Origin: a virus
Strand: one strand, 5' to 3'
IMG/VR virus record: IMGVR_UViG_3300017773_000009
Coordinates: 1-60,447 of that record
Length of the DNA stretch: 60,447 nucleotides
The notes beneath the pieces are model-generated. The model did no database searches and had not been told where the DNA came from. It saw nothing but the letters and a program-made list of their open reading frames with translations. The first letter of the stretch is position 1, and every line of letters begins with the position of its first letter. Position numbers and translations under genes: made by a program. This document shows, one piece after another, positions 31,831-52,462 of the stretch.

Positions 31831-31993
31831 TGCTAGGTCTGGTATCTAGTAATGTTCACTTTTCAAACTTTAACTTTCAAAATCTGACGTTTTTAGACAA
31901 TTTCAGCACGACATTTTTGATGATTTTGGTGCCAATTTGATATGTTTTTGAAATTAATTTGTATCTAGTAAATGAATTTTTATTTAAATTTAT

Positions 31994-32025
31994 TTGGAAA
32001 TTAAAGTTCAATGTTTGTATATTTG
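31994..32025 (+). promoter_or_regulatory. Candidate promoter (TTG-N21-TATATTTG) for the ribozyme-punctuated early operon
   Basis: TTG at 31994-96 and TATATTTG at 32018-25. About 360 nt upstream of the first ORF. Confidence 0.5.
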
Positions 32026-32279
32026 CCCCAACAATCGTTCATTGACATACTGAATTACTGCGACATCAACGCTCACTAGGTTGCATACCTAGTATACTTG
32101 GCTCTCGTTCTCCTAGATTACCCTCGATGTGATATTGATAGGAAATAGGATAAGATAGACTCCAGATGATATGCGAACATCTCTAATCAAGTAAGGCGTA
32201 GTAATTTAGTTTTTGGGAAGCAGAGTAATCTAGCAAGTAGGTGGTACTACTGCGATGTGGTTACTCTAGGGTTTAGGGA

Positions 32280-32363
32280 AATTCGACAATGTCGAAACCT
32301 ACCTAGTTACTAGTGTAGGTCTAGTAGAGGTGGCTACTCTACTACTGATGAGACAAGCCAATT
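32280..32363 (+). ncRNA. Hammerhead ribozyme HH1, type II topology (stem II open)
   Basis: UGUC (32290-93), GAAA (32294-97), and stem III ACCUAC/GUAGGU with an inner CUAG/CUAG helix. GUC cleavage triplet with C17 at 32321. Stem I hairpin UAGUAGAG-loop-CUCUACUA (32322-44), CUGAUGA (32345-51), then GACA (32352-55) pairing back to UGUC. Confidence 0.8.
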
Positions 32364-32384
32364 AACCCCTAAATTTATTCTATT

Positions 32385-32714
32385 ATGAATTATTACGAAT
32401 TATCTCAAGAGATTTACTATGCTATCAAGAAAGGATTGCCAGTTGTAGCGATATATCATCACGATAACAATGGTACGTTGAAAGGTACAAAAGACTTTCA
32501 CCTACCTAGTCCACAAGTTTCTGGGACATATGCCCAGCAAGATACTTACGCTAGGATGAGAGCATCATCTCTGACTGATGAGATTAAAAACTATGTAAAC
32601 TCTAGTGAACATGAGGTAAGTGTTTACAAGATTTACACTATGGTTGACGATGATTGTTCTAATGAAACAAACAAAGAACCTCTTTTATATTCTTATTTAA
32701 ACAAGAGAAAGTAA
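32385..32714 (+). CDS. Early small protein (109 aa), unknown function
   Basis: ATG follows the ttaacccctaaatttattctatt leader. The stop TAA (32712-14) lies inside stem I of HH2. Confidence 0.65.
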   Translation: MNYYELSQEIYYAIKKGLPVVAIYHHDNNGTLKGTKDFHLPSPQVSGTYAQQDTYARMRASSLTDEIKNYVNSSEHEVSVYKIYTMVDDDCSNETNKEPLLYSYLNKRK

Positions 32715-32774
32715 TACTGATGAGACTTGATGAGTCGAAACATCCCTCACTATCTGGTGGGGAATGTCTATTAC
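32711..32774 (+). ncRNA. Hammerhead ribozyme HH2, type I
   Basis: Stem I GUAAUA (32711-16) pairs with UAUUAC (32769-74). CUGAUGA at 32717-23, stem II GACU-UGAUG-AGUC, GAAA at 32737-40. Stem III is 11 positions with one C.A mismatch and one U.G wobble. GUC triplet; cleavage after C32768. Confidence 0.9.
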
Positions 32775-32803
32775 AAATTATTAACCCCTAAATTTATTTT
32801 ATT

Positions 32804-33103
32804 ATGGTATTTGAAGTATTAAGAGAGAAACTAACCACTAGAGGTGGAGGTATCGAAATTGACTTAACTGAATTTGGTTACGATGACCAGAGAATGACTG
32901 CCTACCAGAATTATCTGGGAGGAGGTATGCTTGGTGGTATTTCTAATGATTGCACAATATCAGATTGGCAAGAGAGTCTTCACTTGAGACATATATCAGA
33001 TATGTTGAGAATGGAGTATGCCAACAGACTAGGTAGACTACTGGATGTAGACTCTGATGTTCTATTAAAAGAACTAGAGGTTAGACCAGTTAGTGCCTAC
33101 TAG
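32804..33103 (+). CDS. Early small protein (99 aa), unknown function
   Basis: Leader ttaacccctaaatttattttatt. The stop TAG sits immediately 5' of HH3 stem I. Confidence 0.65.
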   Translation: MVFEVLREKLTTRGGGIEIDLTEFGYDDQRMTAYQNYLGGGMLGGISNDCTISDWQESLHLRHISDMLRMEYANRLGRLLDVDSDVLLKELEVRPVSAY

Positions 33104-33167
33104 AGTATTACTGATGAGACCTTATAGGTCGAAACACTACTGATGTGAGTCAGAGGTTTCTAATACT
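33104..33167 (+). ncRNA. Hammerhead ribozyme HH3, type I (C.U mismatch at the 15.2-16.2 position)
   Basis: Stem I AGUAUUA pairs with UAAUACU. CUGAUGA at 33111-17, stem II GACCU-UAU-AGGUC, GAAA at 33131-34. Stem III has a GUGA tetraloop and is homologous to HH6, with compensatory changes. The triplet is UUC (C17 at 33160), so the pair closing stem III next to the cleavage site is broken. Confidence 0.72.
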
Positions 33168-33186
33168 AACCCTAAATTAAATTACT

Positions 33187-33363
33187 ATGGACTACAAAAT
33201 TAGCGAAAGACTAAAGATGACAATAGGAAACATTAAACACCAACAGAAGAAAGGTTTTTGCGATGATGAAGATTTAACTTTACTAGAGTACGAAATCAAG
33301 AAACTAGAAGAGGTACTCGAAAGGGTAAAAAAACTAGAAAAGAGTATTACTGATGAGACTTGA
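33187..33363 (+). CDS. Early small protein (58 aa; below the ORF-track cutoff)
   Basis: ATG at 33187 after ctaaccctaaattaaattact. Translation MDYKISERLKMTIGNIKHQQKKGFCDDEDLTLLEYEIKKLEEVLERVKKLEKSITDET*. The last 7 codons are encoded by HH4 stem I, the CUGAUGA core and part of stem II. Confidence 0.6.
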   Translation: MDYKISERLKMTIGNIKHQQKKGFCDDEDLTLLEYEIKKLEEVLERVKKLEKSITDET

Positions 33364-33398
33364 TGAGTCGAAACCACTAGAGATAGTGGTCTAATACT
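33343..33398 (+). ncRNA. Hammerhead ribozyme HH4, type I (fully canonical)
   Basis: Stem I AGUAUUA pairs with UAAUACU. CUGAUGA at 33350-56, stem II GACU-UGAUG-AGUC, GAAA at 33370-73. Stem III ACCACUA-GAGA-UAGUGGU is perfect. GUC triplet; cleavage after C33391. Confidence 0.92.
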
Positions 33399-33417
33399 AA
33401 CCCTAAATTAAATTACT

Positions 33418-33654
33418 ATGAACTACATAGAAGAAAAAGTTGTTAAGATGAAGTCTAAATCTAGGAGAAAAGAATACCTAGATAAGATACAAGAGAGAAC
33501 ACAGAATGATATTGGTAATGTCCTCTGGGCATTGGATATGAATCATCCAGAATCGTATGGTTGGCTACTAGGAGAGCAAGTAACTCAAGATGACTTGTAT
33601 GCTCTAGAGGAAGAACTAGATACGATAAACTCTCTATACATCTACACTGAATAG
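33418..33654 (+). CDS. Early small protein (78 aa), unknown function
   Basis: Same leader motif. The last base of the stop TAG is the first base of HH5 stem I. Confidence 0.65.
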   Translation: MNYIEEKVVKMKSKSRRKEYLDKIQERTQNDIGNVLWALDMNHPESYGWLLGEQVTQDDLYALEEELDTINSLYIYTE

Positions 33655-33708
33655 CAATACTGATGAGACCTAATTGGTCGAAACTACTCCTAGTGAGTAG
33701 TCTATTGC
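33654..33708 (+). ncRNA. Hammerhead ribozyme HH5, type I
   Basis: Stem I GCAAUA pairs with UAUUGC. CUGAUGA at 33660-66, stem II GACC-UAAUU-GGUC, GAAA at 33680-83. Stem III ACUACUC-CUAGU-GAGUAGU. GUC triplet; cleavage after C33702. Confidence 0.9.
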
Positions 33709-33741
33709 AATAATGCAATTTAACCCTAAATTTATTTTATT

Positions 33742-34599
33742 ATGACAACGAATGAAAGAATCTTTCAAGTATTAGAAGAAACTAAAACTAACTGGAATGT
33801 AAACAAGTTACCTCTGGTAGCAATAGATTCAGCTACAGACTACAAGTTTGAGACTGAAACCTATGGTTTGTTTCGCTCTGATAATGGTAACTGGCTAGGT
33901 AGCGTAGGTAATCGCTATGAGGTTATGCCTAATTCAGAACTAGCTGAAATTATGGTTGGTATCCAAGCTAGGTTTGGTGGAGAAATACTTGGAGGTAGTT
34001 TACAAGGAGGTAAGAAGATATACTATCAGATGACCTTACCTAAAGAGAGAATTGGTAATGATGTTATCAAGCGTAACATTACTTGCCTTAACTCACATGA
34101 TGGTACATCTAGTATTGGCTTTGGCTCAACAAATGTTGTAGTATCTTGTAGCAATATGTTTCACAGAGCAATGAAAGACCTATCTAAATTCAGACATACA
34201 ATGTCTGCTAGTGAGAGGTTAGCTATTGCAGTTGATGAATTTCAGAAAGCACTAGATACAGACAGAGCGTTAATGGATGACTTTCAGAAGATGTCTCAAA
34301 TACAGATAGATGAGACTATCCTAGAGAAAGTTATGGGTAGCGTATTCAATGTAGATATGAAGAGCAAGGTCTCTGATAACTCTACCAGAAAGCGTAACCA
34401 GATTTCTCAATTTGAGACTGCTCTAGCTAAAGAGACTAGAGAGAAAGGTGGTACACTATGGGGTCTGTTTAATGCAGTAACATACTATACTAATCACCTA
34501 GAGAAGAAGCAAGACCTTAACTACTTGATGTATGGTAGTGGCTACAAGAAGAACTTGACTGCCTTTAATACTATCAAGAAGTATATGGAGACTGCCTAG
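33742..34599 (+). CDS. DUF932-family protein (phage/plasmid-associated, 285 aa)
   Basis: Layout and motifs (CLNSHDGTSSIGFGSTNVVVSCSNM...; GGTLWGLFNAVTYYTNH) are typical of the DUF932/DUF945 family found on mobile elements. Confidence 0.6.
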   Translation: MTTNERIFQVLEETKTNWNVNKLPLVAIDSATDYKFETETYGLFRSDNGNWLGSVGNRYEVMPNSELAEIMVGIQARFGGEILGGSLQGGKKIYYQMTLPKERIGNDVIKRNITCLNSHDGTSSIGFGSTNVVVSCSNMFHRAMKDLSKFRHTMSASERLAIAVDEFQKALDTDRALMDDFQKMSQIQIDETILEKVMGSVFNVDMKSKVSDNSTRKRNQISQFETALAKETREKGGTLWGLFNAVTYYTNHLEKKQDLNYLMYGSGYKKNLTAFNTIKKYMETA

Positions 34600-34660
34600 T
34601 AATGCTGATGAGACCTCAATGGTCGAAACACTACTGCTGTGAAGCAGGGGTGTCCATTAC
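34599..34660 (+). ncRNA. Hammerhead ribozyme HH6, type I
   Basis: Stem I GUAAUG pairs with CAUUAC. CUGAUGA at 34605-11, stem II GACC-UCAAU-GGUC, GAAA at 34625-28. 11-position stem III capped by a GUGA tetraloop. GUC triplet; cleavage after C34654. Confidence 0.9.
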
Positions 34661-34686
34661 AAATGTTTAACCCTAAAAAAAATATT

Positions 34687-34884
34687 ATGGAAAAAGAATT
34701 AAGAAAGTTATCTGTATGGCTAAAGTCAGCAGACAAGTATGAATTTGGATATGACTCTACATATGATGGCATACTAGAAGAAAAGATTGCACAATCTCAA
34801 CAAGAGGTGTGTCATAAGATTGGAGAGTATATCGAGGAGATACTAGAGATTAAGAAGAAAGAAGATACAAGAGATTGTATTTAG
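34687..34884 (+). CDS. Early small protein (65 aa; start moved from 34639 to 34687)
   Basis: The listed 34639 start lies inside HH6 stem III. ATG 34687 follows tttaaccctaaaaaaaatatt, as at the other cistrons. The stop TAG (34882-84) lies 5 nt before pistol P1. Confidence 0.6.
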   Translation: MEKELRKLSVWLKSADKYEFGYDSTYDGILEEKIAQSQQEVCHKIGEYIEEILEIKKKEDTRDCI

Positions 34885-34888
34885 GGGA

Positions 34889-35045
34889 AGTGGACTACGC
34901 CACTATAAATAGAATTTAAGCGTAGAGCGTTTTATGGTACACTAGATGTAGTAAGTAGGAGGGTAATAGGGAGTTAGCCCCTCGTAAAAATCATCCCCAA
35001 AGGCAATAGTCAATGTGCTTTACATCAGTGTATCATAGAGGTATT
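34889..35045 (+). ncRNA. Pistol ribozyme Pi1 with a long P3 insertion
   Basis: P1 AGUGG/CCACU. Loop CUACG pairs with CGUAG (34921-25) as a pseudoknot. Linker AUAAAUAG-AAU-UUAAG, then A-GCG. P3 UUUUAUGGUA (34930-39) pairs with UAUCAUAGAG (35031-40) and encloses an extended helix. G35041-U35042 is the cleavage dinucleotide. P2' AUU pairs with AAU. Confidence 0.8.
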
Positions 35046-35068
35046 ATTAACCCTAAAATTAAATTAAA

Positions 35069-35344
35069 ATGGCAAAAGTAAAAATTATGCAAAGGTCTGT
35101 GTACCACAAGTACGCAGAGATAGAGATTGAAATTCCTATTTTACCAAATGGTTTTGCAGATGTTGACGTTCAAGAATATCTGCGTAATAACGAACACCTG
35201 TATATTGACAAGATAGACAAAGCTATTAGCGAATCTAACTTACAATATGGGAGTGGTGTAGAGGAGTACAGAGGTATGTGTGAACTAGAGGCTGACTCTG
35301 AATGGAGGTATGAATTTGAGAGTGGATATGGTGGACATCTCTAA
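35069..35344 (+). CDS. Early small protein (91 aa), unknown function
   Basis: Leader ttaaccctaaaattaaattaaa. The stop TAA lies 2 nt before Pi2. Confidence 0.65.
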   Translation: MAKVKIMQRSVYHKYAEIEIEIPILPNGFADVDVQEYLRNNEHLYIDKIDKAISESNLQYGSGVEEYRGMCELEADSEWRYEFESGYGGHL

Positions 35345-35345
35345 A

Positions 35346-35463
35346 ACTGGACTATGCCAGTATAAATAGGAATTAAGCATAGAGCGTTTTATGGTATGTT
35401 AGTGGTGTATAAAATGATAAAGTCTGAGGTTATCAAAACACACTAGCATATCATAGAGGTTTT
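35346..35463 (+). ncRNA. Pistol ribozyme Pi2 with an extended P3
   Basis: P1 ACUGG/CCAGU. Loop CUAUG pairs with CAUAG (35378-82). Linker AUAAAUAG-GAA-UUAAG, then A-GCG. P3 UUUUAUGGUA (35387-96) pairs with UAUCAUAGAG (35449-58). G35459-U35460, then P2' UUU. Confidence 0.8.
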
Positions 35464-35487
35464 ATTAACCCCTAAAACTAAATTACA

Positions 35488-35838
35488 ATGGGATACAGAA
35501 GTGATGTTATCTTTGGAGTAAAGAAGAATTTCAAAGATAAAATTGATGCAATTATCAAGGAGAATTTTACAGAAGATTGCTGGAAGGTTACCAACAAAAA
35601 AATCAATGATGATGATTACAATCGAGGAGACTGGGTTGTATATTCTGCTCAATACCTAAAGTGGTATGATGACTACGAGGAGGTAAGGGCTATAAACAGA
35701 ATCATAGATACTATTGACCATCAATCTAACTCTAAAGACTGCTTTATGGTATGTCTTGGAGAGGATGGAGAGATACACGATGATATTGGAGAGTGGTATG
35801 ATTTCGTTGAACATAAACACGAGATAAAGTTATGGTAA
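35488..35838 (+). CDS. Early protein (116 aa), unknown function
   Basis: Leader ttaacccctaaaactaaattaca. Sequence MGYRSDVIFGV...KWYDDYEEV.... Confidence 0.65.
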   Translation: MGYRSDVIFGVKKNFKDKIDAIIKENFTEDCWKVTNKKINDDDYNRGDWVVYSAQYLKWYDDYEEVRAINRIIDTIDHQSNSKDCFMVCLGEDGEIHDDIGEWYDFVEHKHEIKLW

Positions 35839-35852
35839 GATTTATAGAGATT

Positions 35853-35951
35853 ATGGCACAATTATTCTGGTTACTATTTCAAGCAGTATTTATAGTAGCT
35901 TTTTTCAGCACCATCTTGTATGGATTTATCATGCTTTTGCTTGGTAAGTAG
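35853..35951 (+). CDS. Possible 32-aa hydrophobic (single-TM) micro-ORF
   Basis: MAQLFWLLFQAVFIVAFFSTILYGFIMLLLGK*. The last base of the stop TAG (35949-51) falls in Pi3 P1. No conserved leader upstream. Confidence 0.3.
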   Translation: MAQLFWLLFQAVFIVAFFSTILYGFIMLLLGK

Positions 35952-36014
35952 TGGACTACACCACTTTAAAAAGAACATTAAGTGTAGTGCGTTCCCCCTC
36001 TGGGGGAGGTTGTT
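35950..36014 (+). ncRNA. Pistol ribozyme Pi3 (compact, canonical)
   Basis: P1 AGUGG/CCACU. Loop ACUACA pairs with UGUAGU (6-bp pseudoknot). Linker UUAAAAAG-AACA-UUAAG, then GCG. P3 UUCCCCC-UCU-GGGGGAG. G36009-U36010. P2' UGUU pairs with AACA. By recollection it aligns nearly position for position with the published env25 pistol (CGUGG UUAGGG CCACG UUAAAUAG UUGC UUAAG CCCUAA GCG UUGAUC..GAUCAG GU GCAA). Confidence 0.88.
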
Positions 36015-36036
36015 TAACCCTAAAATTATATTTAAT

Positions 36037-36264
36037 ATGAAAACAAATGATTCAAATGTTATGGAATTTCTAGATGAGGTTGTAACACAAATGTTAGAAC
36101 TAGAGTTTGGAGAATACTATAAAAACACTGGCTTTGATAATGTTGAGGATAAAACTTACACCTTAACTGATGAAGCACAAGATTTCTACAACGAAAGATA
36201 TGATGAAGTCGAAACATTATTTAGTAACTTAATTTTAAACCCAGAAGAAGATGGAAAACAATAA
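36037..36264 (+). CDS. Early small acidic protein (75 aa; start moved from 35920 to 36037)
   Basis: The listed N-terminal extension is translated through Pi3. ATG 36037 follows ttaaccctaaaattatatttaat. Confidence 0.6.
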   Translation: MKTNDSNVMEFLDEVVTQMLELEFGEYYKNTGFDNVEDKTYTLTDEAQDFYNERYDEVETLFSNLILNPEEDGKQ

Positions 36265-36535
36265 ACTAATAGCAGAATTTATGGAGTTACCCACAGAAAT
36301 AATGGGTGCAAAAGAGGTTGTTTATGGTATGAATCACGATGATTGGTATACTGCCGACAACTTAAACTATCATCTGTCTTGGGATTGGCTTATGCCAGTA
36401 GCAAACGAGATTATAAAGTCAAGAGATGAGCAAAATGCTGATTGGGACTTGACTGATTTAAAATATGCTTTGCAGACTACAAATATTGAGTTAGTATATA
36501 AAGCAGTAGTAGAATTTATTAAAGAAGAGGGGTAA
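36251..36535 (+). CDS. Early protein (94 aa), last gene of the operon
   Basis: NKLIAEFME...YHLSWDWLMPV motif. Overlaps the upstream ORF by 14 nt. The stop lies inside a terminator hairpin. Confidence 0.6.
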   Translation: MENNKLIAEFMELPTEIMGAKEVVYGMNHDDWYTADNLNYHLSWDWLMPVANEIIKSRDEQNADWDLTDLKYALQTTNIELVYKAVVEFIKEEG

Positions 36536-36551
36536 TACCCTCTTTTTTTTT
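36524..36551 (+). terminator. Intrinsic terminator ending the ribozyme-punctuated operon
   Basis: GAAGAGGG-GUAAUA-CCCUCUU followed by a U-tract. Confidence 0.8.
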
Positions 36552-36585
36552 GCTCAAAAGTGTAGGATGTGAACTTTATTTTTAT

Positions 36586-36593
36586 TAGATTTG
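36586..36593 (+). promoter_or_regulatory. Candidate -7 box TAGATTTG for the recombination/replication operon
   Basis: Matches TAnnTTTG. No clear -33 TTG. Confidence 0.3.
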
Positions 36594-36643
36594 TAACCTA
36601 TATTCATGACAATTTTGTCAATTAACCCATTAAACTATCGAAT

Positions 36644-43413: not shown

Positions 43414-43485
43414 AGACCTATAGTTAAATGGATATAATAAAACTCTCCTAAAGTTTAGTTGCAGGTTCGACTCCTGCTAGGTCTA
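43414..43485 (+). tRNA. tRNA-Arg (anticodon CCU)
   Basis: Acceptor AGACCUA/UAGGUCU. U8. D arm GUUA-AAUGGAUA-UAAU with GG and A20. Anticodon arm AAACU-CUCCUAA-AGUUU (U33, CCU, A37). 4-nt variable loop. T arm GCAGG-UUCGACU-CCUGC. Discriminator A. No encoded CCA. Confidence 0.85.
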
Positions 43486-50091: not shown

Positions 50092-50480
50092 GCTCTTCTT
50101 ACTCTCTTAGCTATTCTCTTTGTGTATTTTGCTTTTTGACTACCAGACTTAGAGGCACTCCTTTTCCTCTTATTAGTGGCTGCCTTTTCTGATTTACTTA
50201 AAGATTCTCTAACCTTCTTTGGTAAGTATCTTCCTCTCTTAGCTCTTGGTTTTTTCTCATCACCCTTAGTGACATAACCCCATTTTTGTTTTGTCCACTT
50301 AGACAGCTTGTTACTAGATGATTTCTTACCCTTGTAACCACCACCAGCTTTCTTATACCTAGCAACAGCTAATTGTGCCTTACGAGCAGACCACTGTCCA
50401 GCTCTACCACCCTTACTACCAGCCTTTACTCTGGCAACAATTCTTTTCCATAATCCTGGTTTTGTTTTCTTAGCTGACAT
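50088..50480 (-). CDS. Highly basic Lys/Arg-rich protein (130 aa)
   Basis: GLWKRIVARVKAGSKGGRAGQWSARKAQLAVARYKKAGGGYKG. K/R-rich throughout. Confidence 0.5.
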   Translation of the reverse strand: MSAKKTKPGLWKRIVARVKAGSKGGRAGQWSARKAQLAVARYKKAGGGYKGKKSSSNKLSKWTKQKWGYVTKGDEKKPRAKRGRYLPKKVRESLSKSEKAATNKRKRSASKSGSQKAKYTKRIAKRVRRA

Positions 50481-52462
50481 TATTTTATTATTACTTTAGT
50501 AGTTATACTCAAATCATTTTTATTTACTTTAATTAAATAAAAACCTCTCTCTAACTCCACGTCTGAAATATTTTTATCTTTATAGACAATCTCTCCTAAA
50601 TTATTATAAACTATAATATCTACTATAGATTTAAAACTAATCAATCCACTTGAAGGATTTGGGAATGGTATTATTCCCATTCTTTCAAACGAAGTTATAT
50701 CTGTAGGACCTGACCAGCCATCTACACAGTAGGCATATAATCCATCACACCCATCATCCCATGTTGTATTACAGCAGTATGGGTCTACCTGTATCACCCA
50801 CTCAAAACATGTATTAGGAATGTAGTATACATTACCAGAATTACAGCCAGCAGAATAATAACAGGATGAGTCTGACATATTAGCTTCTGAATTATAGTTA
50901 ATAGCGTTGACATCAGTGCAGCCAAACAAAGGATAAACACAAGACCCATTATCAGTATTTGCATTATCATTATAATTAATTGCTGTGCTGTCTGTACATC
51001 CATAATAAAAAGGTATGCAATTACCATTATCTATATTTGCTTCTGAGTTATAATTAAACATTGTGTTATCTGTGCAACCATAAACAACGTCTATGCAAGA
51101 GTTGTCGTTAACATTAGCTAGTGGATTGTAGTTAAATGCTTCAGAGTCAGTACAACCTAAGACTGGTAGTATGCAACTACCATCATCAGTATTAGCTAAA
51201 GAATCATAGTTAAGAGCCTCAACAATCATACACCCCTCTATTACAGCTATACAAGTGTCAGGTACATTTGCATTAGGATTGTAGTTAAATGCTAGTTCAT
51301 TCATACAGCCTTCTACAACAGCAATACAAGAATTTTCTAGCTCTACGTTTGCCTCAGGGTCAAAGTTTAGTGCTTCTTCATCCATGCAACCTAATACTAT
51401 TAAAGTCTCACAAGTTTCATCGTCAAAGTCTGCGTCTTCATTGTACTCTAAATATATTGGATTAGTGCAGCCTAAAACATAATAGCAGCTTTCATCGTCT
51501 GTATTGGCAAGAACATTATAATTTAATGATGTATCATCTGTGCAACCATAAATTCTTTCTATACACTCATCACCACAATAAGGCATTCCATTAACTATTA
51601 CAAAAGGAACTATAGGACTAGCAAATCCTCCTGGAGCATCAATGGCTACGTGCTCCTCAGAGTATACACTATACCCACATTGTACTGATGTAAACTGAGA
51701 CTGTTGCGTTATGTTAAACTTAACACTAATAGGTTCTGATATGCTTAACTCAAATGTAAACGTAGTATCAAAACCATCATCAAGAGTAAATATGCCTAGA
51801 AAGTTATTGCCTTGAAACACTTGTAGATATGCTCCAGCCCAACCATTACCAGCTAAATCTGTTAGTTCAAGCGTATGTGTACAACTATCTATTAGTATAT
51901 CTGTGTTAGCTGAATCTATATAATTATAAGCTAAAGAGTCAGTACAGCCAAATACTTTTTCTGTAAAACACATCCCTGTATCTATTGTTGCTATTGGTAG
52001 GAACTCTAAAAAGCTATCATCCATGCAGCCAAATATAGGTGGAGGGGGAGCACAATCTTCTACTGTAAATCCATGATAAGAAGCAAATCCAAAATTGGCT
52101 GAATCCATTTCAACTAAAGTATCATTACATCTTACTAAATAGTATGAGCCATCTTGTCCACCCCATAAACTGCCTTGCATACCATCTCCATATCCATCAC
52201 TTATCACAAAATCGTAATCACCATTAGGTAGGCATAGCTGTGTAACTTGAGGTGAATAATCAACTATATTATCGTAGGGACCACCAGTAACTACTGTATC
52301 TAAGTTATCATCTAATATAGCCCAAGAAGTTTCTTCTGGGTATTGGTCTGGATTAATAACTATATCTAGATACGTACCATTAGGACATTGAGCAAATGCT
52401 GAAGCCATGGTAAAAACCACAACCATTATAAAAGCGTATAAAAATTTAGTAAAGTTGTTCAT
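50480..52462 (-). CDS. Secreted Cys-repeat protein with a T9SS (Por) C-terminal sorting domain (660 aa)
   Basis: Signal peptide MNNFTKFLYAFIMVVVFTMASAFAQ. 11 copies of G-C-(T/M)-D-x3-(A/L)-x-N-(Y/F)-(N/D)-x3-A-(N/D)-x-D-(D/N)-x-S-C. The C-terminus IIPFPNPSSGLISFKS...YNNLGEIVYKDKN...ERGFYLIKVN...TTKVIIK is typical of T9SS CTDs. Confidence 0.75.
   Translation of the reverse strand: MNNFTKFLYAFIMVVVFTMASAFAQCPNGTYLDIVINPDQYPEETSWAILDDNLDTVVTGGPYDNIVDYSPQVTQLCLPNGDYDFVISDGYGDGMQGSLWGGQDGSYYLVRCNDTLVEMDSANFGFASYHGFTVEDCAPPPPIFGCMDDSFLEFLPIATIDTGMCFTEKVFGCTDSLAYNYIDSANTDILIDSCTHTLELTDLAGNGWAGAYLQVFQGNNFLGIFTLDDGFDTTFTFELSISEPISVKFNITQQSQFTSVQCGYSVYSEEHVAIDAPGGFASPIVPFVIVNGMPYCGDECIERIYGCTDDTSLNYNVLANTDDESCYYVLGCTNPIYLEYNEDADFDDETCETLIVLGCMDEEALNFDPEANVELENSCIAVVEGCMNELAFNYNPNANVPDTCIAVIEGCMIVEALNYDSLANTDDGSCILPVLGCTDSEAFNYNPLANVNDNSCIDVVYGCTDNTMFNYNSEANIDNGNCIPFYYGCTDSTAINYNDNANTDNGSCVYPLFGCTDVNAINYNSEANMSDSSCYYSAGCNSGNVYYIPNTCFEWVIQVDPYCCNTTWDDGCDGLYAYCVDGWSGPTDITSFERMGIIPFPNPSSGLISFKSIVDIIVYNNLGEIVYKDKNISDVELERGFYLIKVNKNDLSITTKVIIK
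50858..51550 (-). repeat. Nine tandem ~25-27-aa GCTD...NYN...AN.D.GSC repeats (coding)
   Basis: Repeat glycines at residues 306, 331, 358, 385, 410, 436, 462, 488 and 514 of the 660-aa protein. Two more copies lie at residues 144-194. Confidence 0.85.

What the first reader, a model, noticed from the sequence alone, without database searches (positions are those of the whole stretch)
34889..36014. Three pistol ribozymes show compensatory changes in P1, pseudoknot and P2; two have greatly expanded P3 arms
The pseudoknot covaries: loop/partner pairs are CUACG/CGUAG (Pi1), CUAUG/CAUAG (Pi2) and ACUACA/UGUAGU (Pi3). P1 reads GUGG/CCAC, CUGG/CCAG and GUGG/CCAC. P2 reads AAU/AUU, GAA/UUU and AACA/UGUU. 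The single-stranded conserved blocks (AUAAAUAG or UUAAAAAG, UUAAG, GCG, and G-U at the scissile position) are retained. Pi3 has a 7-bp P3 with a 3-nt loop. Pi1 and Pi2 share a 10-bp P3 base (UUUUAUGGUA/UAUCAUAGAG) that encloses about 90 and 52 nt of further helix (CACU(A)GAUGUA/UACAUCAGUG in Pi1; UGUUAGUG/CACUAGCA in Pi2). The insertions may add a regulatory or protein-binding module.
Basis: seen in the sequence. Interest (0 to 1): 0.8.

Follow-up and report, generated by a model that had tools for sequence, protein, structure and literature searches.

The report
Pistol ribozymes punctuating a phage operon
Three genuine self-cutting "pistol" RNAs, two of them with unusually long side arms, sit together with six hammerhead ribozymes between the small early genes of a marine phage, where they most likely cut one long transcript into single-gene messages. 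This kind of element is known, but the long arms and the regular layout are new details.

Summary
Rfam calls three pistol ribozymes above its curated threshold. Their true extents are 34889-35045, 35346-35463 and 35950-36014, with cleavage at G35041^U35042, G35459^U35460 and G36009^U36010. The P1, pseudoknot and P2 differences fall exactly on the pistol pairing positions. P3 measures 111, 72 and 17 nt, against 12-34 nt in most of about 55 other phage pistols.

The wider picture is larger than the finding. The three pistols are the last of nine self-cleaving ribozymes (six hammerheads, three pistols). These separate the short genes of one + strand operon (about 32.0-36.55 kb) in a marine, probably Bacteroidota-infecting, phage. 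Each ribozyme is followed by the same leader, UAACCC(C)UAAA...AUG.

Related phages carry a hammerhead where others carry a pistol, so what is conserved is cleavage itself.

The 91-nt interior of Pi1's P3 is a conserved folded domain: two hairpins on a junction plus a probable pseudoknot. In six variants, 100% of cells are paired and seven pairs show compensatory changes. It matches no Rfam family and always follows the same upstream 65-aa gene.

Pi2's long arm occurs in one phage population only; relatives have 24-34 nt there.

A regulatory role for the arms is neither shown nor excluded. This is a new variant of a known kind.

The parts
34889..35045 (+). Pi1, pistol ribozyme with 111-nt P3. 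P1 34889-34893/34900-34904; pseudoknot 34895-34899 with 34921-34925; P2 34913-34915 with 35043-35045; P3 34930-35040; predicted cleavage between G35041 and U35042.
   Evidence: Rfam GA hit for the 5' part; pairings read from sequence; six distinct versions aligned, 100% of cells paired.
34940..35030 (+). Interior of Pi1's P3, a conserved folded domain. It has a 10-bp extension with one bulged A; stem A 34959-34963/34979-34983 with invariant loop GGGAGU(U/A)AGC; a possible loop pseudoknot GGGA 34969-34972 with UCCC 34994-34997; hairpin B 35001-35007/35013-35020.
   Evidence: RNAalifold. Pair counts: stem A has 3 of 5 pairs with double changes, hairpin B has 1, the P3 base has 1. A covariance model finds the domain only in orthologues of this pistol across 781 kb of phage loci. 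No Rfam family matches.
35346..35463 (+). Pi2, pistol ribozyme with 72-nt P3 (35387-35458). P1 35346-35350/35357-35361; pseudoknot 35352-35356 with 35378-35382; P2 35370-35372 with 35461-35463; predicted cleavage G35459^U35460.
   Evidence: Rfam GA hit for the 5' part; fold z = -5.6; identical in six independent metagenome contigs; relatives have a 24- or 34-nt P3.
35950..36014 (+). Pi3, canonical-size pistol. P3 35992-36008 (7 bp, 3-nt loop); predicted cleavage G36009^U36010. The stop codon UAG (35949-35951) of a 32-aa hydrophobic ORF overlaps the first bases of P1.
   Evidence: Rfam 54.4 bits over the full model 1-68; identical in relative L108.
32269..32376 (+). HH0, a hammerhead with open stem II (type-II-like order CGAAAC ... 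GUC^ ... CUGAUGAG). It is closed by a helix between GGGUUUAGGG and the leader CCCCUAAAUUU. Predicted cleavage after C32321.
   Evidence: Core motifs read from sequence; closing helix in the MFE fold; conserved in L108, L109 and L134. Activity not tested; the MFE fold also offers a competing hairpin over CGAA.
32710..32775 (+). HH1, type I hammerhead, predicted cleavage after C32768.
   Evidence: CUGAUGAG/CGAAAC/GUC core with three stems; sub-threshold Rfam RAGATH-1-hammerhead hit.
33104..33167 (+). HH2, type I hammerhead, predicted cleavage after C33160 (UUC rather than GUC before the cleavage site).
   Evidence: sub-threshold Hammerhead_3 hit.
33343..33398 (+). HH3, type I hammerhead, predicted cleavage after C33391. 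The upstream ORF's stop codon (33361-33363) lies inside stem II.
33653..33709 (+). HH4, type I hammerhead, predicted cleavage after C33702.
34598..34661 (+). HH5, type I hammerhead after the DUF932 gene, predicted cleavage after C34654. Relative L109 has a pistol at this junction.
35047..35068 (+). Conserved leader after Pi1 (UUAACCCUAAAAUUAAAUUAAA, then AUG at 35069). The same leader follows all nine ribozymes, starting at 32362, 32781, 33166, 33397, 33720, 34667, 35047, 35465 and 36014.
   Evidence: Pattern search; intergenic listing. After cleavage the 5' UTRs are 26-39 nt (63 nt after HH0).
35465..35487 (+). Leader after Pi2 (UUAACCCCUAAAACUAAAUUACA, then AUG at 35488).
36014..36036 (+). 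Leader after Pi3 (UUAACCCUAAAAUUAUAUUUAAU, then AUG at 36037).
34880..34886 (+). Anti-leader UUUAGGG immediately 5' of Pi1, complementary to CCCUAAA (35051-35057) in the leader 3' of Pi1. The second of the only two UUUAGGG copies on this strand (32272-32278) plays the same part at HH0.
   Evidence: Present in 6 of 9 flank variants of Pi1 orthologues, and non-coding in L137 and at L109:5488.
36529..36550 (+). Intrinsic-terminator-like hairpin GGGG UAAUA CCCU followed by U9, at the end of the ribozyme-punctuated operon.
31993..32025 (+). Possible Bacteroidota-type promoter (TTTG, 21 nt, TATATTTG) upstream of the array. Inferred only.
   Evidence: Read from sequence. The consensus TTTG/TAnnTTTG comes from my own knowledge of Bacteroidetes promoters. 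A Bacteroidota host is suggested by a T9SS sorting domain in ORF 50480-52462 (24.5 bits, below Pfam's curated cut-off of 27).

Best explanation
The three elements are functional pistol self-cleaving ribozymes. They are the last three of nine ribozymes (six hammerheads, then three pistols) that punctuate one + strand operon of small early genes in a marine phage. The operon runs from a promoter near 32.0 kb to a terminator near 36.55 kb.

Proposed mechanism:
- Each ribozyme starts at or within a few bases of the stop codon of the gene before it.
- It cuts itself near its own 3' edge.
- The upstream product (leader, gene, nearly the whole ribozyme) ends in a compact structured 3' end with a 2',3'-cyclic phosphate.
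- The downstream product starts with a 5'-OH, 5-18 nt, then the standard leader UAACCC(C)UAAA and an A/U-rich stretch to the AUG.
- The polycistronic transcript thus becomes single- or two-gene mRNAs with uniform 26-39-nt 5' UTRs.

The long P3 arms are peripheral additions on the one helix whose tip points away from the catalytic core. They need not affect catalysis.
- Pi1's arm carries a conserved folded domain. It travels with the upstream 65-aa gene as part of that mRNA's 3' end. It most likely acts there, in mRNA stability or as a binding site for a factor.
- Pi2's arm is a recent, lineage-specific long hairpin. Its 10-bp base was copied from, or shares a donor with, Pi1.

Shown here: identity, architecture, covariation, conservation and layout. 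Inferred: cleavage in vivo, the fate of the products, and any role of the arms.
For: Identity:
- Three Rfam hits above the gathering score.
- All pistol pairings and conserved blocks are present.

Array:
- Five type I hammerheads with intact CUGAUGAG/CGAAAC/GUC cores. Stems I, II and III covary between copies and between relatives.
- One permuted hammerhead.
- A ribozyme lies in nine consecutive spaces between genes; two gene pairs inside the operon have no ribozyme between them (35488-35838 with the 32-aa ORF, and 36037-36264 with 36251-36535).
- The same leader follows all nine ribozymes and occurs nowhere else in this arrangement.
- A terminator-like hairpin with U9 lies only at the end of the operon.

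Cleavage itself is what is conserved:
- The junction after the DUF932 gene holds a hammerhead in the window and L035 but a pistol in L109.
- The junction before the MGYRS gene holds a pistol in the window, L107 and L108 but a hammerhead in L035 and L109.

Ribozymes travel with the upstream gene:
- The 65-aa gene family is followed by the long-armed pistol in all five fully compared relatives.
- The downstream gene belongs to three different families.

Pi1 arm:
- In six distinct sequences at 93% mean identity, 294 of 294 cells are paired.
- Seven pairs changed on both sides; slid controls give none, apart from a single pair at +3.
- The domain is found only in orthologues.

Pi2 arm:
- Identical in six independent assemblies.
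- Absent from relatives, which have 24- or 34-nt P3 arms.

Precedent:
- Clustered hammerheads flank single genes in prophages, cleave in vitro within 2-kb transcripts, and were proposed to process phage polycistronic RNA (Perreault 2011, PMC3088659).
- An unrelated phage contig (L098) has nine pistols, and the eight read through are each followed by its own standard leader with a Shine-Dalgarno sequence.
Against: - No cleavage assay and no transcript-end data exist for this phage, so activity and processing in vivo are inferred.
- The hammerheads do not reach Rfam gathering scores (29-33 bits against 48-56).
- The promoter is only a consensus match from memory. Internal promoters cannot be excluded.
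- The role of the leader motif AACCCUAAA is unknown.
- Covariation in the Pi1 arm rests on six closely related sequences, which represent few independent events.
- The loop pseudoknot GGGA/UCCC has only one one-sided change, so it is not proven.
- P2 is only 3 bp in Pi1 and Pi2.
Confidence: 0.75

Rival explanations
1. The long P3 arms are sensor or switch modules, so Pi1 and perhaps Pi2 are natural allosteric pistols. Cleavage would respond to a small molecule, a protein or another RNA that binds the arm.
For: - Pi1's arm is a conserved, non-trivial fold with an invariant loop GGGAGU(U/A)AGC and an A-rich strand GUA(A/U)AAAUCAU, as expected of a binding site.
- P3 is a position where engineered pistols accept aptamers (my own recollection of the aptazyme literature, not checked here).
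- Perreault 2011 speculated on regulated cleavage in phage hammerheads.
Against: - The domain is separated from the catalytic core by about 20 continuous base pairs, which should form whether or not the tip is folded. No obvious communication path exists.
- No Rfam riboswitch or aptamer matches.
- Pi2's arm is a plain hairpin, absent in close relatives.
- A hammerhead can replace a pistol at the same junction. This argues for constitutive cutting.
Confidence: 0.12
2. The arms are selectively neutral baggage: insertions or recombination scars tolerated because the tip of P3 is not needed for catalysis.
For: - P3 length is plastic in the pistol that follows the 91-aa gene family: 24 nt (L107, L108), 34 nt (L035, L109), 72 nt (window).
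- Pi2's arm is confined to one population.
- Pi2's 10-bp base, including two window-specific wobble pairs, is identical to Pi1's. That points to recombination between the copies.
- Other phage pistols carry unrelated 86-118-nt branched P3 inserts.
Against: - For Pi1, the insert is kept in every relative that has this pistol.
- Its base substitutions fall so that all 49 pairs stay paired, with three double changes in a 5-bp stem. Neutral sequence would not do this.
Confidence: 0.1
3. The repeated ribozyme-plus-leader units matter mainly at the DNA level. They would act as shared homology that lets gene cassettes be shuffled between co-infecting phages, with RNA cleavage secondary or lost.
For: - Gene order differs among five relatives, with breakpoints at the ribozyme/leader junctions.
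- Cassettes of leader, gene and ribozyme move as units.
- Pi1 and Pi2 share identical 17-nt and 12-nt runs around P3.
Against: - Catalytic cores are intact in every copy, and helices covary rather than staying identical. This indicates selection on RNA structure, not on DNA identity.
- Two unrelated ribozyme classes fill the same junctions.
Confidence: 0.05
4. The long, nearly perfect P3 helices (about 20 bp) are targets of a double-strand-specific nuclease such as RNase III. This would add a second, host-dependent cut inside the ribozyme arm.
For: - Both long arms contain about two turns of nearly continuous helix and share the same 10-bp base.
- Phage T7 processes its early polycistronic RNA with RNase III (my own knowledge).
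Against: - No direct evidence.
- Pi3 and all relatives with short P3 arms do without it.
- The Pi1 helix carries wobble pairs and a bulge that vary between relatives.
Confidence: 0.05

Closest known systems
Pistol self-cleaving ribozyme (Rfam RF02679; Weinberg 2015; Harris 2015, PMC4604425)
   Same: - P1 hairpin whose loop forms a pseudoknot with the P2-P3 junction.
- Conserved AAA-rich linker, UUAAG and GCG blocks.
- P2 and P3, with a two-nucleotide G-U junction as the cleavage site.
- Association with phages.
   Different: - P3 is 111 and 72 nt in two copies, against 12-34 nt in most of the 55 phage pistols compared here.
- The Rfam model cannot align their 3' halves.
- One arm carries a conserved branched domain.
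- P2 is only 3 bp in Pi1 and Pi2.
Clustered hammerhead ribozymes flanking genes in prophages (Perreault et al. 2011, PMC3088659)
   Same: - Several ribozymes in one transcription unit, each between single genes or short gene blocks.
- Processing of a long phage transcript into gene-length mRNAs was proposed.
- Triple arrays cleave in vitro.
   Different: - Here nine ribozymes of two classes lie in 4 kb.
- A standard leader follows every cut.
- Classes are exchanged at equivalent junctions between relatives.
- The host is probably Bacteroidota, which do not rely on Shine-Dalgarno pairing.
RNase III processing of phage T7 early polycistronic mRNA (my own knowledge, not checked here)
   Same: - Cuts between early genes.
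- The upstream product keeps a hairpin at its 3' end.
- Gene-length mRNAs result.
   Different: - T7 uses a host protein enzyme acting on hairpins. Here the RNA cuts itself.
- The products here carry a 2',3'-cyclic phosphate and a 5'-OH.
Ribozymes beside phage tRNAs (theta ribozymes, Kienbeck et al. 2024, PMC10879173) and ribozyme-dependent translation in RNA viruses (bioRxiv 10.1101/2024.05.16.594327)
   Same: - Viral self-cleaving ribozymes placed so that the cut defines the end of a functional RNA.
- In the RNA viruses, cleavage in the 5' UTR is needed for translation.
   Different: - Different ribozyme classes and hosts.
- Here the downstream product is a bacterial-type mRNA with a conserved leader.
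- No translation data exist for this phage.
Ligand-controlled ribozymes (glmS ribozyme; engineered pistol aptazymes)
   Same: A folded extra domain is attached to a self-cleaving core.
   Different: - No ligand is known.
- No known aptamer matches.
- The domain is insulated from the core by a long helix.

Membership tests
Pistol ribozyme (RF02679) | Score at or above the Rfam gathering threshold (34.5 bits) | tested here: met
   54.4, 40.7 and 40.6 bits. For Pi1 and Pi2 the score comes from the 5' two-thirds; the 3' part is misaligned.
Pistol ribozyme (RF02679) | P1 hairpin with a 6-nt loop | tested here: met
   AGUGG-ACUACG-CCACU, ACUGG-ACUAUG-CCAGU and AGUGG-ACUACA-CCACU. P1 is paired in 98.9% of cells across 55 pistols.
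Pistol ribozyme (RF02679) | [quoted passage not shown] | tested here: met
   CUACG/CGUAG, CUAUG/CAUAG, ACUACA/UGUAGU. 99.3% paired, with 3 of 5 pairs showing double changes. Pi1 orthologues add CUGUG/CACAG. The definition comes from Harris 2015.
Pistol ribozyme (RF02679) | Highly conserved unpaired nucleotides (A-rich linker, UUAxG, GCG) | tested here: met
   All three copies carry AUAAAUAG or UUAAAAAG, UUAAG and GCG, aligned to upper-case consensus positions.
Pistol ribozyme (RF02679) | P3 followed by a junction of exactly two nucleotides (usually G-U) and then the 3' strand of P2 | tested here: met
   GAG-GU-AUU, GAG-GU-UUU and GAG-GU-UGUU, with P2 AAU/AUU, GAA/UUU and AACA/UGUU. P2 is short (3 bp) in two copies.
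Pistol ribozyme (RF02679) | Site-specific self-cleavage at the G-U junction | not testable with these tools
   Needs in vitro transcription and cleavage assays.
Hammerhead ribozyme, type I (context elements) | Core CUGANGA ... GAAA ... NUH with three flanking helices, stem I open | tested here: met
   Five window copies and 16 further distinct copies in relatives have the core. Stem I has 6-7 of 7 pairs, stem II 4 bp, stem III 4-5 of 5 pairs, with covarying sequences.
Hammerhead ribozyme, type I (context elements) | Score at or above an Rfam hammerhead gathering threshold | tested here: not met
   Best hits are 29-33 bits, against 48.5 (Hammerhead_3) or 56.3 (RAGATH-1-hammerhead). I call them hammerheads on core and stems, not on the Rfam score.
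Known riboswitch or aptamer classes (for the P3 inserts) | Match to a curated aptamer covariance model | tested here: not met
   A permissive cmscan of 34925-35045 gave only a chance miRNA hit at E = 1.4. Nothing appeared in the whole-window scan at E <= 5.

The most novel reading that the evidence does not exclude
The 91-nt interior of Pi1's P3 is a previously undescribed functional RNA module grafted onto a ribozyme. It could be a binding site for a phage or host factor, or an exonuclease-blocking or translation-controlling 3' element for the mRNA of the upstream 65-aa gene. Together with the anti-leader/leader helix that brackets Pi1, it would couple self-cleavage to expression of the flanking genes. 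Pi1 would then be a natural ribozyme whose output is regulated or signal-dependent, not merely constitutive.
Probability: 0.15. Interest if true: 0.8.

Novelty: new variant of a known kind. Interest (0 to 1): 0.5.

Why it matters
What the many self-cleaving ribozymes of phages and bacteria do is still described as largely elusive (review PMC6765202). This locus is an unusually readable case for four reasons:
- Nine ribozymes of two classes separate the genes of one operon.
- Every cut is followed by the same leader.
- Relatives swap one ribozyme class for the other at the same junction.
- Each ribozyme travels with the gene upstream of it.

Together these point to cutting the transcript into standard mRNAs as the selected function. 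They also give precise predicted RNA ends that can be looked for in ocean metatranscriptomes.

The long P3 arms show that pistol ribozymes can carry large passengers. One of these passengers is a conserved folded domain of unknown function. Current covariance models mis-place the 3' end of such copies, so long-armed pistols are probably mis-annotated or under-counted.

Tried and rejected
- blastn of 32200-36100 against INPHARED phages found no match.
- The exact 17-mer of the P3 base in IMG/VR gave six chance hits without pistols.
- The leader 17-mer in IMG/VR returned only the one related contig plus chance hits.
- The pistol 5' half pattern in IMG/VR gave 28 loci, of which 26 are a different pistol type in jumbo-phage contigs.
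- The insert-specific pattern GGGAGTWAGCN5GTAWAAATC gave only chance matches in GTDB genomes and IMG/VR, apart from the known relative.
- A covariance model of the insert, run over 781 kb of phage loci, found only the orthologues.
- Rfam found no family for the insert.
- Pi1 and Pi2 interiors aligned to each other scored below the shuffle mean, so they are not homologous.
- PHROGs and Pfam on the ten small proteins returned only DUF932 and unknowns.
- An AlphaFold model of the linked 65-aa protein is a confident helical hairpin, which is uninformative. I did not run a fold search.
- I looked for RNA repair or ligase genes that would use 5'-OH / cyclic-phosphate ends and found none.
- I checked whether short public contigs end at the predicted cleavage sites. 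One (L128) starts at 33391, next to the HH3 site. The others span the sites, so this is not evidence.
- More distant homologues of the 65-aa protein (L138-L140) are not followed by a pistol.
- I considered the leader as a promoter and rejected it as less likely. It lies 19-22 nt before each AUG, has no TAnnTTTG box, and the window encodes no recognisable phage RNA polymerase. This is not excluded.
Full report

A scan of the whole window with Rfam at curated thresholds gives four hits. One is a tRNA. The other three are pistol ribozymes at 35950-36014 (54.4 bits), 34889-34968 (40.7) and 35346-35391 (40.6), against a threshold of 34.5.

The last copy aligns to the full model. In the other two only the 5' two-thirds aligns, and the model then forces a false 3' end close by. 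Reading the sequence gives the real architecture.

| Copy | P1 | Pseudoknot | P2 | P3 | Scissile pair |
|---|---|---|---|---|---|
| Pi1 | AGUGG/CCACU | CUACG/CGUAG | AAU/AUU | 34930-35040 | G35041-U35042 |
| Pi2 | ACUGG/CCAGU | CUAUG/CAUAG | GAA/UUU | 35387-35458 | G35459-U35460 |
| Pi3 | AGUGG/CCACU | ACUACA/UGUAGU | AACA/UGUU | 35992-36008 | G36009-U36010 |

Both long arms fold far better than shuffled sequence (z = -3.6 and -5.6).

**The differences fall on pistol pairing positions**

I collected pistols from IMG/VR with two degenerate patterns. I parsed their 3' ends, removed the P3 interiors and aligned 55 distinct sequences.
- P1 and the pseudoknot were not used to select sequences. P1 is paired in 98.9% of cells and the pseudoknot in 99.3%.
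- Seventeen of 19 pairs show changes on both sides. Sliding the partners by 1-3 columns drops pairing to 32-47%.
- P2 and P3 were used as selection filters, so their percentages are biased upward.
- The three window copies sit in this register.

**How unusual the arms are**

In the same sample, P3 is 12-34 nt in most sequences. Besides the present lineage, two other lineages have credible long, branched P3 inserts closed by a proper base and a G-U junction:
- L055 and L086, with 118 and 101 nt.
- L102 and L105, with 88 and 86 nt.

Long P3 arms are therefore rare but recurrent in phage pistols. I found no paper that describes them. The Rfam model does not accommodate them.

**The context is the main addition**

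The pistols are the last three of nine self-cleaving ribozymes on the + strand between 32.27 and 36.01 kb.
- Five are type I hammerheads with intact CUGAUGAG, CGAAAC and GUC (once UUC) elements.
- Their three stems differ between copies in a compensatory way: stem I AGUAAUA/UAUUAC, AGUAUUA/UAAUACU, AGCAAUA/UAUUGC, AGUAAUG/CAUUAC; stem II GACU/AGUC and GACC/GGUC.
- Predicted cuts lie after 32768, 33160, 33391, 33702 and 34654.
- A sixth hammerhead, upstream of the first gene, has the permuted order with stem II open.
- These hammerheads do not reach Rfam thresholds. I call them on core and stems.

Each ribozyme begins at or within a few bases of the stop codon of the preceding ORF. In two cases the stop codon lies inside the ribozyme.

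Each ribozyme is followed, 5-18 nt after the predicted cut, by the same leader: (U/C)UAACCC(C)UAAA, then A/U-rich sequence, with the AUG 19-22 nt after the motif starts. The processed 5' UTRs would be 26-39 nt.

A terminator-like hairpin with nine U residues follows the last gene, at 36529-36550. A match to the Bacteroidetes promoter consensus lies at 31993-32025. That consensus is from my own knowledge, and the assignment is only inferred.

The proteins are small and unknown except for a DUF932 protein. The rest of the window is a phage: an SU10-like capsid protein, a primase-helicase, PhoH and a large polyvalent protein. One ORF carries a type IX secretion sorting domain, just under Pfam's own cut-off, which hints at a Bacteroidota host.

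**Relatives**

No match exists in the INPHARED phage records. Relatives came from several sources:
- IMG/VR: L035, L011 and L072, all from one contig.
- A metagenome scan: L107 and L108.
- Contigs encoding homologues of the 65-aa protein upstream of Pi1: L109-L118 and L134-L137, mostly Tara Oceans; and L125-L133 from JGI seawater and SRA assemblies.

All have the same design of ribozymes and leaders. Three points follow.

First, ribozyme classes are exchanged at equivalent junctions.
- After the DUF932 gene the window, L035, L107 and L108 have a hammerhead, and L109 has a pistol.
- Before the MGYRS gene the window, L107 and L108 have a pistol, and L035 and L109 have a hammerhead.
- What is kept is a self-cleaving element, not a particular fold.

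Second, ribozymes stay with the gene upstream of them while downstream genes change.
- The 65-aa gene family is followed by the long-armed pistol in all five genomes compared, with three different gene families downstream.
- The 91-aa family is always followed by a pistol with P1 ACUGG/CCAGU.
- This fits the chemistry. After cleavage nearly the whole ribozyme remains on the upstream product.

Third, gene order differs between relatives, with breakpoints at the ribozyme/leader junctions. The units behave as cassettes.

**The Pi1 arm**

Six distinct orthologous sequences were aligned (window, L108, L107, L035, L109, L117). The covariance model recovered a seventh in L137. The six are 93% identical on average.

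I wrote a structure containing the pistol helices, a 20-bp P3 with one bulged A, an inner hairpin (stem A), a second hairpin (B) stacked on P3, and a possible pseudoknot between the stem A loop (GGGA) and UCCC in the following strand.
- All 294 cells are standard pairs.
- Seven pairs changed on both sides: two in the pistol pseudoknot, one in P3, three of the five in stem A (GAGGG/CCCUC, GUGAG/CUCAC, GAGGU/ACCUC, GUGGU/ACCAC) and one in hairpin B (A-U, G-U, G-C).
- The slid controls have none, apart from a single pair at +3.
- The loop pseudoknot is consistent but has only a one-sided change, so it remains a proposal.

The sequences are few and related, so these are few independent events. Even so, the substitutions are clearly placed to keep the helices.

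The domain matches no Rfam family, even with permissive settings. Its signature pattern occurs only by chance in GTDB genomes and IMG/VR. A covariance model built from it finds only the orthologues in 781 kb of phage loci. More distant homologues of the 65-aa protein are not followed by a pistol.

**The Pi2 arm**

It is identical in six independently assembled contigs, so it is not an assembly error. All six belong to the same phage population.

On the pistol that follows the same gene, L107 and L108 have a 24-nt P3, and L035 and L109 a 34-nt P3.

Its 10-bp base equals Pi1's base, including two wobble pairs specific to the window lineage. The flanking AGAGCG also follows Pi1 rather than the AGUGCG of the L107 and L108 orthologues. 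The interiors are unrelated. The simplest reading is recombination with Pi1 or with a similar donor, followed by or combined with a different interior. Whether this arm has any function cannot be told.

**Mechanism**

The best-supported account is that the ribozymes cut the operon transcript into gene-length mRNAs.
- The upstream product would end flush with P3 (or with hammerhead stem III) and carry a cyclic phosphate. This end gives 3' exonucleases little to hold.
- The downstream product would begin with a 5'-OH and a standard leader.

This follows the proposal made for clustered prophage hammerheads, which cleave in vitro in their native 2-kb context (PMC3088659). It parallels RNase III processing of T7 early RNA (my own knowledge).

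The class exchange, the fixed position of the cuts relative to the leader, and the single terminator are the evidence here. Cleavage in vivo is inferred.

The arms project from the helix that points away from the active site, according to descriptions of the crystal structures (PMC6154101). They are separated from the core by about two helical turns. I therefore think a direct effect on catalysis is unlikely (about 0.12). I favour a role for the Pi1 domain in the 3' end of the upstream mRNA, but this is inference.

**An unexpected detail**

UUUAGGG occurs only twice on the + strand of the whole window. Both copies lie directly 5' of a ribozyme (HH0 and Pi1) and are complementary to the CCCUAAA of the leader on the other side of that ribozyme. 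Minimum-energy folds form this bracket helix in both cases.

At Pi1 the element is present in six of nine flank variants. It lies outside the coding sequence in L137, and also at another pistol in L109 and L035. Before cleavage it would hold the next gene's leader in a helix. After cleavage the two strands are on different molecules. This suggests cleavage-dependent release of the leader at some junctions. It is untested.

**Verdict**

The finding is real and accurately described. The elements are members of a known ribozyme class in a known kind of setting. The new points are:
- the long P3 arms, one carrying a conserved folded domain of unknown function;
- the standard leader after every cut;
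- the exchange of ribozyme classes at the same junctions;
- the linkage of each ribozyme to its upstream gene.

I rate it a new variant of a known kind, with interest 0.5.

Noticed in passing
L007-L034 (26 of 28 loci; e.g. L014:2080-2295, L010:5432-5824): Jumbo-phage contigs (up to 233 kb) carry a nearly invariant pistol with a short GC-rich P3, placed directly 5' of tRNA genes. In L014 the pistol at 2080-2142 is followed by tRNAs at 2144 and 2222. In L010 and most others, about 180 nt of conserved, apparently structured RNA with no Rfam match lies between the pistol and the tRNAs.
   Followed up: partly
L098:3360-8574 (IMGVR_UViG_3300042922_000923): An unrelated 131-kb phage contig has nine Rfam-threshold pistols within 5 kb. 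The eight read through are each followed by its own standard leader AGAAUUUAAUUUAAAAGGAG...AUG, which includes a Shine-Dalgarno sequence. The ribozyme-plus-standard-leader design is therefore not confined to the window's lineage.
   Followed up: partly
window 32272-32278 and 34880-34886 (partners 32366-32372 and 35051-35057): The only two UUUAGGG heptamers on the + strand of the 60-kb window lie immediately 5' of ribozymes HH0 and Pi1. They can pair with the leader CCCUAAA 3' of the same ribozyme, bracketing it. The element is non-coding in L137 and at L109:5488.
   Followed up: partly
L055(-), L086(-), L102(-), L105(-): Other phage pistols have branched P3 inserts of 118, 101, 88 and 86 nt. 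These are unrelated in sequence to the window's arms. L102 and L105 differ by apparently compensatory changes.
   Followed up: partly
window 35853-35951: A 32-codon ORF encodes a hydrophobic peptide (MAQLFWLLFQAVFIVAFFSTILYGFIMLLLGK). It ends with a UAG that overlaps the first two bases of Pi3's P1. A similar small hydrophobic ORF precedes the orthologous pistol in L035 and L109.
   Followed up: no
window 33361-33363, and L109:4605-4610: Stop codons of upstream ORFs lie inside hammerhead cores or stem II (for example UGA within CUGAUGAG). A terminating ribosome would therefore cover and unfold the ribozyme, so translation and cleavage may compete.
   Followed up: no
window 36560-36643; L109:6125-6300: A conserved non-coding stretch lies after the operon's terminator or last pistol. 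It has a TAnnTTTG box (TAGATTTG in the window, TAAGTTTG in L109) and a degenerate leader-like AACCC motif. It is possibly the promoter of the next transcription unit.
   Followed up: no
L128 (Logan SRR10522321 contig), start = window 33391: One short public contig begins next to the predicted HH3 cleavage site (cut after 33391). Other short contigs span the cleavage sites, so this may be coincidence. The type of sequencing library is unknown.
   Followed up: no
window 35019-35047: A sigma-70-like TTTACA-17-TATTAT match lies in the 3' strand of Pi1's arm, just before the leader. It is probably irrelevant in a Bacteroidota host, but it would matter if the host uses sigma-70-type promoters.
   Followed up: no
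window 43414-43485: A tRNA gene (65.4 bits) lies in the replication-gene region. No ribozyme is next to it.
   Followed up: no
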